From assembly GCA_030141605.1 (NCBI GenBank), contig JAQGDQ010000112.1:124001-188000 (forward strand): a stretch of 64,000 nt of DNA, read 5' to 3'. The stretch comes from Tubiluchus corallicola. Lineage: Eukaryota > Animalia > Priapulida. Shown piece by piece: positions 18,625 through 23,144 of the stretch (position 1 is the first letter of the stretch; each line of letters starts with the position of its first letter). The notes beneath the pieces were generated by a model. The model did not search any database. It had not been told where the DNA came from and was given only the letters and a program-made list of their open reading frames with translations. A program made the position numbers and the translations under genes.

Positions 18625-21600
18625 ATGTATCGAAGTATGTCACAACTGTCTTTCCAACTGTTTATCGTAAGTAAACAAAAACATCAATACTCAAGAGCGA
18701 TTAAAAGGCATATTGCATTAAATTATGCTTCAACTTTGCGTTGCCAAGGTCTAATAAGCAATTTTACGACAACAACTAGATGTTAGAAATATTTATGAAA
18801 CTTTATTGGCCTTCCTGACGTCAGCGACACCTATCAAAGAATAAAATAATAAATCTCCGATTTTTAGCCTTGATAATATCACCAAGCACATTATCTAAAT
18901 TTCCAGCATGAATATCAAGTTTCACAACGCCTTTAAGGAACTTATTTGTTGTTATCAATAATTTGTTTCATGAAATGCCCGTGATTTGCTTGTGTTATTG
19001 AAATCATTTTACGTTTTAAAAGGTCACCCTTAGGACGTGCTAATGTTTTCAGAGCAAAGGTAGTGCACATAGGTCTAAAGGAAAGGACAAGTCACTTACC
19101 GTATTGTATTTATTTTATTGTTACTGATCACTTAAACGTTGAAAAATGCAACAAAGAAATTGGCAAAAAACTTTTTGTAAAGATAATGTTAATTTATGCT
19201 ACTGCAGTGTAAAAATTCTCAGGTGCTCTGGAAGTTCACTTGAATATTATAAATATGAGGTAACTGATGGACTTCGTCTCTTTTCGTAAGCGCACCGTGA
19301 CTTTCCGTAAGCGGGCACTCCTTCAGCTAACTTAAACTTCTGCAGTTCGCTTGATGTTTGTGCAAAAAGTATCACGAAATTATCTATCTAATTTTCTGTA
19401 AAAACTTGTTATACTTTTAACACAAATTGACAGGGTTCTGCTTACCTTCAGTCGATAAACGACGTCATTGGTCAAGAATGCGCGTTCAAATTGGTAGTAC
19501 CCAAAAGTGAAATGACGGCAACTTCAAAATGATTTTTCTAGTTACATAAGACTTTTTATCACACTTTTATTAATAAACTCATTTAGCGTTTTCGCTTCCA
19601 ATGAAACAAGCCTAACTTCCCAAAAGGCTTGGTTTTTCCTTTAATTATGATGCCCGGTGGCGGCCACAAATCAAATCCAGATTTCTCTACAGCGGCTTTA
19701 CAATGACAACCTGTCCCTGCCCTCGTTAAATCATAAAAAATTACTAAAAGGCAATGCTTGGGGATCATCCATACAGGTTATCTATAATACATAATTATCG
19801 GTAAAACAATGAAACGAGAGACAAACTTAATCCTTTTGCTGCCAGATATTTCCATTTAATTCTCAATTGGCGATTCCAAGTTTTTGCTAATGGCATTTGT
19901 GTGAATTTAAAACAATAAAATTTAATCACTATCTATGATAAGGCTAATTGCTTTGCTATTATGCACATACTTTGTTTTAGTTACCTCGCCTACCTGTAAG
20001 TTAAGATTTGAGGACGATTAGCAAAACCAGGAAACATCACTTCAGTTTTCCCAAGTATACATTCATCATGCCTGACTTTTTGACCAAAGCAGTATTCTTC
20101 TTGATTTCTTTTGTCTGTCGATTTATTCCAACCCAACAGCCTTCTTCCTGTCTATCTACCTTCCGTAAATATACAATTATAGTTATTCAGTTGAGAGAGA
20201 GAGTGAGAGAGAGAGAGAGAGAGAGGAGAGAGAGAGAGAGAGAGAGAGAGAGAGAGAGAGAGAGAGAGAGAGAGAGAGAGAGAGAGAGAGAGAGAGAGAG
20301 ATCTGTATCTGTATTTCTAGTTGTGTCTGTGTCGGTGTCGTCTGTATCTGTGTGTGCATCGTTACCTTCGTCTGCATATGTAACTGTATCCATTTCTGCA
20401 ACTGTATCTTTATCCTGTATCCGTGCCTGTATCTGTGCCAGAGCAGAAGAGGAAGAAGCGTGAGAAAGAGAAATTGAGTAAAAGTTTGAGAGGCAGAGAG
20501 AAGAAAAATAGAAAACAATTAACAATGTTTTATTTCTACAGGTAGTGGGCTGCTTTTTTTGCAGCAAATTTGTTGCAACTGGGAAACCTCAAATGTGGTT
20601 AGGTAAATACTATCATTATTTTAAGTAAGTTTGTAAAGGTATAAAATTTTATTATTGCTTTAAACACTGCAGTTATCAGAACCGTGTTTCCTATAAATGC
20701 CCAAAATGCTTTCAATTCATTAAACCATTTTGTAATGCTTAGGTGGTATGACAGTTTGGTTGGATAGTTGGTTGCTTGGCTGGTTGGTTGGCTGGCTGGT
20801 TGGTTGGTTGGTTGGTCGGTTGGATGGTTAGAAATTTAGGTTGATTATTTCATCGATTTGTTGATTGGTGGTTCGTTGTTTGATTGGTTAGTTGGTTAGT
20901 TGAATGTTAGATTAATTGGTTGTTTAATAGGTTGAATGCGTTTGGTTGGCTAGTCGTTTGATTCGTTAGTTATTTTATGAATAAATTTTGAAGCATAGCT
21001 ATACTAGCTTCACCTCAAGTTAGTTCATGGTTAACTGGTTGATGCTTGTTATCTGTTCAATCAATAAGTAATTCAGTCAGTCACTCAGCAGATTGGATAA
21101 CTGGTGATTGACTGGTCAATGGGCTGCTGGTTGGCTGATTGATGAGTTGTCTGACTGACTAACTGGTTGGGAAGATGAATGCCATTGAATGGGCTTGTCG
21201 CTTCATTTTGTTTGTGGTTTATTGGTAGTTGGCGGAACTGGTTACTGTGGTATGCAGTTTGGCTGTTGGTGGCCTAAAAATTGATTGCCTAATTCATTTA
21301 CTGATCAACTACGTGGGGAAACTACAGCCAATTTGACGGACAAAAATTTAGATCTGACTTTTGCTCTAAAAGTAAGAAAATTTGGAAAGAAGAGTAGACG
21401 TAGCTGCAGTGAGGTTATTTACTGGATAGGGAAATTTTAATGAGTTGATGATTCGTATTGGACTTGCTAGAGAAGAGCTTTGTAAATGCAGCATGGAAGC
21501 CAAGAATCCATTTTATATATAGATGTCATTGAGGTGACGCAAACAGACGAAATGTATTACTAAATAAAATGGGGAATGACAACTTAATTGTTGTGCATTA

Positions 21601-23144
21601 CACCAAAAATGTAAATTTAATATCAGCACTACTTACTTTGTAAAGGACTCATTTATTTTAGATCTTGCTGCTAAATTTTAGTAAAATAGGGCTGAAATTT
21701 GTGCAGTTTTTTGCGATTATTGGTTGTAACTCTTTGCGGAGTTTTATAATTTAGTATATTAAATTAACTGCATTTTATTTTACTAGACAGGAAACTTGCT
21801 TTATTAACCCACCTTAATTTTAGCACTCACTTTAATACTTCTTGTTTAACGTCACGTAACTGTTATACGCACCAATAAAATAGCTAATTACAGAATGCGT
21901 AATGTAATATTGTCGAATTCACTCTGTCTACCTAAAATTGTATAATGTTTATACAGAAAGTTTTGCCTGCAAAATGAGGCTAATAATAATAATCGGTACT
22001 GATTAACAAGCCAAATGACTGACTGACCAACTGGTTGATAGAAGGGTCAATTACTTTCCATCTTTCAGGTGATGAACCTCCCAACTGCAATGCCGAACCT
22101 CGAGATTGCGACCTCTACGGTTTCGACTACATCCGCGACGATGGGGGTGCAGAATGCATGTCTGGTAGGCGGGTCCTCTGCGCCTCGCCACATCCCAAAC
22201 TGATTTCCGCGCCTACGCCTATTGAAGATATCAACGTGATGACTTACAATGTCTGGGAAATCTTCCTGACTTGGCTGAAAACAGGACAGAGGGAACGGAC
22301 ATGTCGAATCCCAGCCGTGATTGCGGAAGAGTATCCCGATGTGGAAGTTATTGGTTTTCAGGAAGTCTTCCTAGGCGGATGTTGGGGCGACCGCGGCGTC
22401 ACGTTCCGAGACCTGCTCCGACAACATGGGTTCAAATATTTCACCAAAACAGTAGGCATAATTTGGCGTCCTGATGAGACAGACAATTCCCCAAGTGATA
22501 AAATTTCGCCCCAACTGGTTAACGGTGGCACTTTCATAGCCTCCAAATACCCCATTTTAGAAGAAGACACGTACATTTTTGAAGCTGCTGAATTGATAGG
22601 TATGGATCGATTTGCAAGAAAAGGGGTAAATTATGCCAAGATCTTAAAGACCGAAGGTGGACAGTCACGTGTCTATCACGTGTTCAACACACACTTGAAT
22701 TCTGGTGGTAGCAACTGGAAAGCGCGTCTGTATCAAGCTAATGAAATGAGATGGTTTATTAACAGCAAAATGATCAGCAAAGACGAACCGGTCATTCTCA
22801 GTGGCGATTTCAACATGAACGGTAAAGGCGACATACCGCACGTACACGCCATGTTGAACAGGCTCCGCGCCACAGCGCCACCTGTCGTTGGCGGGGCAAC
22901 CAGTTCTCACGTTCGCGGTTCGTTTCTAGATTACGTTCTGTATAGCTCTACTCACCTGAAGCCAGTGGCGGCTACACAAGAGGTGGTCATGCCCAGAAGT
23001 AAGAAACCAATGTTGATATGCACCTTTGCTACTCGCATTGGCTACGTAAGCCCATATTCGCCTGACTGCTTAAATACCGACGAAGTGAGTGATCTTAGCG
23101 ACCACTACGCCACCATTGGACGGTTCTATTTCCCAGTAACCTAG
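18625..23144 (+). CDS. Secreted bacterial-type sphingomyelinase C-like phosphodiesterase (EEP superfamily, about 392 aa)
   Basis: Exons 18625-18666 (MYRSMSQLSFQLFI), 20542-20602 (VVGCFFCSKFVATGKPQMWL-G) and 22069-23144 splice in frame with canonical GT-AG. Catalytic motifs: TYNV, FQEVF, NGG.FIASKYPI, DRFARKGVNYAKI, NTHL, GDFN, LDYV, SDHY. AATAAA at 23147-23152. The two small exons are less certain than the large one. Confidence 0.85.
19075..19644 (+). mobile_element. T2/Kolobok-type MITE, copy 2, in the sphingomyelinase 5' intron
   Basis: CTAAAGGAAAGGACAAG...CTTGGTTTTTCCTTTAA terminal inverted repeats. Colinear with 5150-5745. Confidence 0.72.
20193..20440. repeat. (GA)n followed by degenerate (TGTATC)n
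   Basis: Direct inspection. Confidence 0.9.
20755..20970. repeat. Degenerate (TTGG)n low-complexity tract
   Basis: Direct inspection. Confidence 0.8.

What the first reader, a model, noticed from the sequence alone, without database searches (positions are those of the whole stretch)
18625..23144. Secreted bacterial-type sphingomyelinase C apparently domesticated in an animal genome
Seen in sequence: the whole EEP catalytic domain sits in one uninterrupted 1076-nt exon. Two tiny upstream exons (42 and 61 nt), missed by the ORF track, splice in frame to give a signal-peptide-like leader, MYRSMSQLSFQLFIVVGCFFCSKFVATG-KPQ. Established knowledge: the motif series TYNV / FQEVF / NGG.FIASKYPI / DRFARKGVNYAKI / NTHL / GDFN / LDYV / SDHY parallels secreted bacterial Mg2+-dependent SMase C (Bacillus cereus SMase, Staphylococcus beta-toxin, Leptospira Sph). 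The best-known animal neutral SMases (SMPD2/3) are membrane-associated rather than secreted. Inference: this is a horizontally acquired enzyme that gained eukaryotic introns and a secretion signal at its 5' end. It may act as a membrane-lytic toxin, a digestive enzyme or an immune effector. Introns, a poly(A) signal and animal neighbours argue against contamination.
Basis: partly seen in the sequence, partly recalled or inferred. Interest (0 to 1): 0.8.

Follow-up and report, generated by a model that had tools for sequence, protein, structure and literature searches.

The report
Bacterial-type sphingomyelinase family in marine invertebrates
A priapulid-like worm carries an intact, likely spliced gene for a predicted secreted lipid-cutting enzyme of bacterial type; it is one member of a family shared by five animal phyla, likely acquired from bacteria once, long ago, and not a recent or unique borrowing.

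Summary
The gene is real. Three GT-AG exons keep frame, and a 90%-identical database protein reads through both predicted junctions. The nearest named match of a neighbouring GPCR is Priapulus caudatus at 81%, so the host is likely a priapulid. The enzyme is bacterial SMase C-type: a family profile scores 173 bits against B. cereus SMase, 35 against SMPD3 and 20 against SMPD2. It is not unique. Relatives, many already auto-annotated 'sphingomyelinase C-like', occur in echinoderms, hemichordates, annelids, flatworms and Priapulus. They form one clade (100/98) joined to a rare bacterial group (99/95) that shares a diagnostic cysteine pair and an N-terminal cysteine module. A priapulid-specific transfer is rejected (p-AU 0.007); grouping with protist/virus-type homologues is weakly rejected (p 0.03). 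Best reading: one transfer before the protostome-deuterostome split, giving a secreted Mg-dependent phospholipase C. 'Gained a signal peptide' is unsupported, since bacterial relatives have hydrophobic leaders. The membrane-binding edge metal site is missing, which weakens the toxin idea. Activity and junction reads are untested.

The parts
18600..18666 (+). First coding exon (short 5' UTR from 18600 predicted; ATG at 18625 or 18637); first half of the predicted signal peptide
   Evidence: acceptor-like AG at 18598-18599, GTAAGT donor at 18667; P0002 alignment across the junction
20542..20602 (+). Exon 2 (61 nt): rest of the hydrophobic leader and the conserved W that opens the cysteine module
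   Evidence: AG/GT ends, phase 0 to 1; top score among 2442 candidate segments; genomic contig of run X1 matches 20470-20753 with 0 differences
22069..22181 (+). N-terminal four-cysteine module of about 42 residues (C6, C13, C29, C37 of P0001), no Pfam match
   Evidence: profile built from 12 bacterial-type repeats hits residues 4-37 at E 4e-9; no Pfam or Atlas hit
22230..23144 (+). EEP (DNase I-like) catalytic domain of SMase C type, uninterrupted, with N60, E98, D179, K184, H208, D246, N248, D287, D344, H345
   Evidence: PF03372 E 9e-11; TIGR03395 87.6 bits, below cut-off 248.2; PDB alignments; AlphaFold model pLDDT 85.9, top fold hits SMase C
23019..23069 (+). C317-C333 segment: predicted disulfide-bracketed extension with three aromatic residues, in the region where bacterial SMase C has its membrane-binding hairpin
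   Evidence: Cys conservation and aromatic count; strands 309-320 and 333-341 in the model; disulfide and membrane role inferred
23147..23152 (+). Candidate poly(A) signal; others at 23290 and 23463
   Evidence: use not shown

Best explanation
The gene encodes a predicted secreted, Mg2+-dependent sphingomyelinase C-type phospholipase that belongs to an animal family likely acquired once from bacteria before protostomes and deuterostomes split, then inherited, duplicated and often lost. Shown: gene structure, motifs, fold, animal clade, bacterial sister group. Inferred mechanism: the leader sends the protein into the secretory path; cysteine pairs likely form disulfides; E98 and H345 hold the central metal, H208 and H345 act as acid and base, and the enzyme cuts the head group from sphingomyelin or a related phosphosphingolipid to release ceramide outside the cell. 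The most likely role is digestion or turnover of extracellular and dietary membrane lipid (untested). Many echinoderm and hemichordate members add a hydrophobic C-terminal tail (predicted GPI anchor); this copy has none and would be soluble.
For: Profile of 26 family members: 173 bits to B. cereus SMase, 35 to SMPD3, 20 to SMPD2; Foldseek ranks SMase C structures first (TM 0.67). Catalytic residues line up with B. cereus N16, E53, D126, K131, H151, D195, N197, D253 and are nearly invariant across 95 rows. ML tree, 59 rows, LG+C20: 24 animal-clade rows 100/98; these plus 10 near-bacterial rows 99/95. C78 and C104 are in 43/43 and 46/46 animal-clade rows and 15/15 near-bacterial rows, but 0 of the next bacterial group, 0 of the protist/virus-type group and 0/13 outgroup rows. 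The cysteine module is found in 26/45 animal-clade proteins, 11/15 near, 6/10 next bacterial, 1/11 protist/virus-type, 0/13 outgroup. Near relatives sit among bacterial genes (rpoA, L17, SPase II, AcrB). 17 of the 20 listed differences to run X2 contigs are synonymous against about 25% expected. Exon GC 0.49 lies within the range of neighbouring host exons, 0.41-0.50.
Against: The bacterial sister group is rare (2 close loci among 16 found in 185,579 genomes by two peptide patterns) and its monophyly is weak (67/82), so the direction of transfer rests on the root. A protist/virus-type group exists and is mostly unnamed; joining it to animals is rejected only at p about 0.03, and one unnamed long-branch row (P0196) falls next to animals plus near bacteria (90/51). 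No named chordate, arthropod, nematode, mollusc, cnidarian or sponge appeared, so many losses are required; many rows are unnamed, so these absences are not established. SMPD2/3/5 sequences were not in the tree. This copy lacks about 12 residues between D246 and D287 (41 against a median of 53), which could change the substrate. No activity, SignalP run or junction read.
Confidence: 0.6

Rival explanations
1. The family is old in eukaryotes and was inherited vertically from protist ancestors; the look-alike bacterial genes came from eukaryotes.
For: A protist/virus-type group exists, one member lying beside an Rpb2 gene on an intronless, virus-like contig; the bacterial sister group is rare and patchy; unnamed P0196 sits near the animal-plus-bacteria node.
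Against: Animals plus that group as one clade is rejected at p-AU 0.029 and 0.030; two successive bacterial groups and an all-bacterial outgroup lie outside the animals; the C78/C104 pair is absent from that group. The groups were named after a first tree was seen, which weakens the p-values.
Confidence: 0.2
2. Several separate transfers (from one bacterial lineage, or between animals) explain the patchy presence, not one early transfer with many losses.
For: No named hit in several large phyla; deep branches inside the animal clade are poorly resolved, and Priapulus, Owenia and Saccoglossus copies fall in more than one place.
Against: All sampled animal copies form one branch at 100/98 with no verified bacterium inside; scattered paralogues fit early duplication.
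Confidence: 0.13
3. A recent transfer into this worm's lineage, domesticated there.
For: The catalytic domain is intronless; identity to a soil bacterial relative (38%) equals that to a Priapulus paralogue (37%).
Against: Priapulid subclade plus near bacteria as one clade is rejected, p-AU 0.007; the protein nests with Priapulus P0177 and unnamed Logan proteins.
Confidence: 0.03
4. Whatever its origin, the protein is a membrane-lytic toxin or immune effector like staphylococcal beta-toxin.
For: Secreted-type leader, same fold as haemolytic SMases; an aromatic extension lies in the hairpin region.
Against: Edge metal residues N57, E99, D100 of B. cereus align to G102, V150, N151; PMC9710629 (passages) says mutating these lowers binding to erythrocytes; no W-F hairpin apex; the family is kept in deposit feeders and grazers, often with a predicted anchor.
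Confidence: 0.12
5. A fast-evolving offshoot of animal neutral sphingomyelinases SMPD2/3/5.
For: Same EEP superfamily; weak profile hits to SMPD3 (E 6e-8) and SMPD2 (E 0.002).
Against: Five to eight times higher scores to bacterial SMase C; lower structural ranks for 8J2F and 5UVG; shared derived cysteines with bacteria.
Confidence: 0.03

Closest known systems
Bacterial sphingomyelinase C (B. cereus SMase 2DDR/2UYR, S. aureus beta-toxin 3I41, L. ivanovii SmcL 1ZWX, S. griseocarneus 7CNE; TIGR03395)
   Same: EEP fold, central metal and acid-base residues, D-x4-K-G loop, predicted secretion.
   Different: 22-26% identity; far below the TIGR03395 cut-off (87.6 against 248.2); edge metal site not kept; no W-F apex; extra N-terminal cysteine module and further cysteine pairs; shorter loop before D287; introns.
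Automatically annotated 'sphingomyelinase C-like' proteins of Priapulus caudatus (XP_014678889.1, XP_014667124.1), Saccoglossus (XP_002739137.1), echinoderms, Owenia, Dimorphilus, Macrostomum, Cichlidogyrus
   Same: Same clade (100/98), same motifs and cysteines, 33-41% identity.
   Different: This copy has one module, no hydrophobic C-terminal tail (8 of 45 animal-clade proteins have one, all ambulacrarian), one catalytic domain (several hemichordate proteins have two), and a loop deletion shared only with P0002 and P0003.
Uncharacterised bacterial SMase-like group (Zetaproteobacteria MAG L001, Nitrospinota MAG L002, Gammaproteobacteria MAG MDJ0892273.1, metagenome contigs L017-L043)
   Same: Sister to the animal clade (99/95); shares C78/C104, C317/C333, the cysteine module and a hydrophobic leader.
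   Different: Intronless, among bacterial genes; none is biochemically characterised as far as I found; the L002 copy is frameshifted.
MSP130 family (PMC11878542, abstract and outline seen)
   Same: Same kind of history: a bacterial gene inferred to enter animals before the bilaterian radiation, now a cell-surface or secreted protein with patchy presence.
   Different: Unrelated protein and function; its case also rests on shared intron positions, which I could not test here.
Animal neutral sphingomyelinases SMPD2 (8J2F) and SMPD3 (5UVG)
   Same: EEP superfamily and related chemistry.
   Different: 12-16% identity in structural alignments, weak profile scores; membrane-bound intracellular enzymes (recalled), not secreted.

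Membership tests
Bacterial SMase C (TIGR03395 equivalog) | Score above the curated cut-off | tested here: not met
   87.6 bits against 248.2
Bacterial SMase C (TIGR03395 equivalog) | Central metal and catalytic residues (N16, E53, H151, D195, N197, H296; PMC9710629 passages for N16, E53, N197, H151, H296) | tested here: met
   N60, E98, H208, D246, N248 by alignment to 2DDR; H345 by the terminal SDH motif, outside the printed alignment
Bacterial SMase C (TIGR03395 equivalog) | Edge metal site F55, N57, E99, D100 | tested here: not met
   F100, G102, V150, N151; the site also varies among bacterial SMases (PMC9710629 passages)
Bacterial SMase C (TIGR03395 equivalog) | Aromatic beta-hairpin with W284/F285 apex | tested here: inconclusive
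   Cys-bracketed extension with F319, Y325, Y329 in the matching region; no W-F apex
Bacterial SMase C (TIGR03395 equivalog) | Mg2+-dependent sphingomyelin hydrolysis | not testable with these tools
   needs a bench assay
EEP / DNase I-like superfamily (PF03372) | Pfam score above gathering threshold and the fold | tested here: met
   42.3 bits against 24.5; model and Foldseek
Bilaterian 'sphingomyelinase C-like' clade | Falls inside the animal clade and has its cysteine pairs and module | tested here: met
SMPD2/SMPD3/SMPD5 neutral sphingomyelinases | Closer to these than to bacterial SMase C; transmembrane segments | tested here: not met
   35 and 20 bits against 173; best 19-residue hydropathy in exon 3 is 0.67; SMPD5 not compared
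Horizontally acquired animal gene | Animal copies nested among bacteria with support | tested here: met
   99/95 for animals plus near bacteria, rooted on classical bacterial SMase C relatives; root assumed; alternative rejected at p about 0.03 only
Horizontally acquired animal gene | Absent from non-bilaterian animals and unicellular relatives of animals | tested here: inconclusive
   no named hit, but 8 of 19 animal-clade representatives looked up had no name and most others were not looked up
Horizontally acquired animal gene | Integrated in host DNA, with introns, under selection | tested here: met

The most novel reading that the evidence does not exclude
Bilaterians have an overlooked extracellular neutral sphingomyelinase family, captured from a disulfide-rich bacterial SMase C lineage in a single transfer before the protostome-deuterostome split. 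It is soluble in priapulids, annelids and flatworms, GPI-anchored and sometimes doubled in echinoderms and hemichordates, lost in the main model animals, and carries an undescribed four-cysteine repeat module shared with bacteria.
Probability: 0.5. Interest if true: 0.6.

Novelty: new member of a known kind. Interest (0 to 1): 0.42.

Why it matters
The single gene is an ordinary member of a family that databases already label automatically. The family itself seems undescribed in the papers I could search. If the history holds, it adds a rare case of a bacterial gene fixed on the bilaterian stem (like MSP130) and gives marine invertebrates a route to make ceramide outside the cell that is missing from model animals. 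It is directly testable with one recombinant enzyme and existing sea urchin or annelid expression data.

Tried and rejected
No whole genome was held, so copy number and synteny were not tested. No RNA holder listed for the exon; runs X1 and X2 gave no contig across either junction; this is no evidence on expression. A joint 20680 to 22554 in X1 has CC/AC-type ends and a short side and was not taken as a splice. No second copy in the window. No Rfam match in the window. The viral collection gave 1 distant locus of 43 candidates. ESM Atlas gave only bacterial SMase clusters for the whole protein and no usable hit for the cysteine module. The careful tree on 95 rows did not finish; its quick tree agreed with the finished 59-row tree. 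Rows dropped: 333 domain rows went into the first tree, 95 and then 59 were chosen by hand to represent its clades; partial rows and the frameshifted L002 gene were left out. A loop-motif regex and an intron-donor regex were uninformative. Literature: 10 searches found no paper on this family; 'sphingomyelin' had 0 hits in the main text of PMC13342648, PMC13350694 and PMC4729200 and in 2 supplementary files of PMC4729200. The gene tables of the two HGT compendia (PMC13342648, PMC12637581) could not be read and may list family members. Tick IsSMase was considered and set aside: the listing of PMC7325911 calls it a spider-toxin orthologue, which I recall as the unrelated SMase D type. A role for B. 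cereus W232 in the loop shortened here is recalled only; one search did not confirm it.
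Full report
Observation. The best database hit, P0002 (Logan, 386 aa, 90% identical), has one open frame that runs across both predicted junctions. 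Its contig is not labelled RNA or DNA, so it supports the protein sequence but is not a junction read. The segment holding exon 2 scores 95 against the start of P0002 among 2442 candidate segments, against 34 for the best one elsewhere. Exon 1 is less well pinned; the second ATG at 18637 may be the start, and an acceptor-like AG at 18598-18599 hints at an upstream non-coding exon. Neither run laid on the region crossed a junction. Of 20 listed differences between the exon and contigs of run X2 (about 90% alike, RNA only by guess), 17 are synonymous against about 25% expected, which points to purifying selection; 11 further differences near contig ends were not listed.

Host. The neighbours are a rhodopsin-family GPCR, a sulfotransferase and an M1 aminopeptidase. 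The GPCR's best named match is Priapulus caudatus at 81%, with the next phyla at about 60% or less, so the host is likely a priapulid. Exon 3 has GC 0.49 and GC3 0.52, inside the range of the neighbouring exons (GC 0.41-0.50, GC3 0.40-0.64). Contamination is not credible.

Enzyme type. The exon matches PF03372 above threshold and TIGR03395 well below its cut-off (87.6 against 248.2). All 7 PDB sequence hits are bacterial SMase C. A 26-member profile scores 173 bits to B. cereus SMase, 35 to human SMPD3 and 20 to SMPD2. The AlphaFold model (pLDDT 85.9) ranks SMase C structures first (TM 0.67) ahead of 8J2F (0.54) and 5UVG (0.52). In the alignment to 2DDR, N16, E53, D126, K131, H151, D195, N197 and D253 match N60, E98, D179, K184, H208, D246, N248 and D287; H345 is matched to H296 by the terminal motif only. 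The edge metal site (F55, N57, E99, D100 in PMC9710629, passages seen) reads F100, G102, V150, N151, so only the Phe is kept; that paper links these residues and the W284/F285 hairpin apex to erythrocyte and liposome binding. Here the hairpin region is a C317-C333 segment with three aromatic residues. This copy, P0002 and P0003 also lack about 12 residues between D246 and D287 (41-42 against a median of 53).

Family. The gene is not alone. Named relatives at 33-41% identity come from nine echinoderm genera, three hemichordate genera, the annelids Owenia and Dimorphilus, the flatworms Macrostomum and Cichlidogyrus, and Priapulus caudatus, many labelled 'sphingomyelinase C-like' by their sources. 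Of 19 animal-clade representatives looked up, 11 had names, all animals, and 8 had none. No named chordate, arthropod, nematode, mollusc, cnidarian or sponge turned up, but most representatives were not looked up, so absence is not shown. By a crude rule, 8 of 45 animal-clade proteins have a hydrophobic C-terminal tail like a GPI signal, all ambulacrarian; the window's protein has none. Some hemichordate proteins hold two catalytic domains. An unnamed eukaryotic copy (L076) has at least five GT-AG introns, read by eye, most of them inside the domain, so an intronless domain is not a family rule.

Origin. A first tree of 333 rows showed the animal copies in one clade beside a small bacterial-type group. 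I then chose 95 and 59 rows by hand. In the finished 59-row tree (LG+C20) the 24 animal-clade rows have 100/98 support, animals plus 10 near-bacterial rows 99/95, the near bacteria alone only 67/82; a second bacterial group and a protist/virus-type group lie further out, with classical bacterial SMase relatives as the assumed root. The checked near relatives are bacterial by record title or by neighbours (rpoA, L17, SPase II, AcrB, luciferase-like monooxygenase). Characters agree with the tree: C78 and C104 occur in 43/43 and 46/46 animal-clade rows and 15/15 near rows, and in none of the other three groups; these columns were part of the tree alignment, so this is not fully independent. A profile of the N-terminal four-cysteine module, built only from 12 bacterial-type repeats, hits the window's protein at E 4e-9, 26 of 45 animal-clade proteins, 11 of 15 near, 6 of 10 in the second bacterial group, 1 of 11 protist/virus-type, 0 of 13 outgroup and 0 of 103 more distant hits. 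One bacterial protein carries five or six tandem copies; Pfam has no model for it. AU tests reject the priapulid subclade joining the bacteria (p 0.007) and, more weakly, animals joining the protist/virus-type group (p 0.029 with and 0.030 without the long row P0196). The groups were named after the first tree was seen, so these p-values are optimistic. Against the reading: the bacterial sister group is rare (2 close loci among 16 in 185,579 genomes, pattern-limited), the protist/virus-type rows are unnamed and only guessed to be protists (one is on a virus-like contig beside Rpb2), and SMPD2/3/5 were not in the tree.

How it most likely works. A hydrophobic leader (9-residue hydropathy up to 3.0; SignalP not run) would send the protein out of the cell. 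14 of 16 bacterial-type relatives also have such a leader, so secretion was likely inherited and not gained. The central metal site and the two histidines would cut the head group from sphingomyelin or a related phosphosphingolipid and release ceramide. With no edge metal site and a family kept by deposit feeders, grazers and predators alike, digestion or turnover of membrane lipid is more likely than cell lysis; this is inference and untested.

Comparison and novelty. It works like bacterial SMase C but fails that family's cut-off and edge-site test, so it is filed as a member of the animal 'sphingomyelinase C-like' clade. Ten paper searches found no description of this clade or its origin; the term is absent from the main text and two supplementary files of the hemichordate genome paper (PMC4729200, passages and supplement search), and from the main text of PMC13342648 and PMC13350694. 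The tables of two HGT compendia could not be read and the library lacks most subscription papers. MSP130 (PMC11878542, abstract and outline) is the closest precedent for the history. The scan's earlier notes held nothing on this sequence or place.

Verdict. Observation confirmed; interpretation partly supported. The locus is a new member of an already auto-annotated family. The more interesting object is the family: a likely single, very old bacterial transfer with an undescribed cysteine module. Interest 0.42.

Noticed in passing
window 6533-15603 (+): RYamide/neuropeptide Y-type GPCR, 81% identical to a Priapulus caudatus receptor; used to place the host.
   Followed up: partly
window about 26164-40052 (-): Multi-exon sulfotransferase gene (Sulfotransfer_1/_3 hits at 26167-26472 and 34848-35258; a possible first exon with a hydrophobic stretch near 39624-40052 had no Pfam hit).
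   Followed up: partly
window about 57088-62142 (+): M1 aminopeptidase N-type gene running towards the window end.
   Followed up: partly
window 23483-24181 (-): Broken reverse-transcriptase (LINE-type) fragment just downstream of the gene.
   Followed up: partly
window 43547-43987 (+) and 51331-51666 (-): Open frames of 146 and 111 residues with no Pfam match.
   Followed up: partly
L044 3158-5104: Bacterial SMase-like protein with five or six tandem copies of the 42-residue four-cysteine module, which has no Pfam or Atlas match; the module may deserve its own family.
   Followed up: partly
L067 3887-5020: SMase C-like gene beside Rpb2 and a CDP-alcohol phosphatidyltransferase on an intronless, giant-virus-like contig: a possible viral lipid-remodelling pair.
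   Followed up: partly
L002 3893-5086: The Nitrospinota MAG copy is split over two frames (frameshift or assembly error).
   Followed up: no
L076 1-2231, L077, L064: Eukaryotic copies in metagenomes that are split into pieces; L076 shows several GT-AG introns in the catalytic domain.
   Followed up: partly
P0003 and P0005; run X1 record on window 22554-22772: P0003 and P0005 both come from contigs of 2485 bases, possibly one contig with tandem copies; run X1 holds an approximately 82%-alike second copy of part of the exon, so the host may have paralogues.
   Followed up: no
P0122-P0125: Hemichordate proteins of about 830 residues with two tandem catalytic domains.
   Followed up: partly
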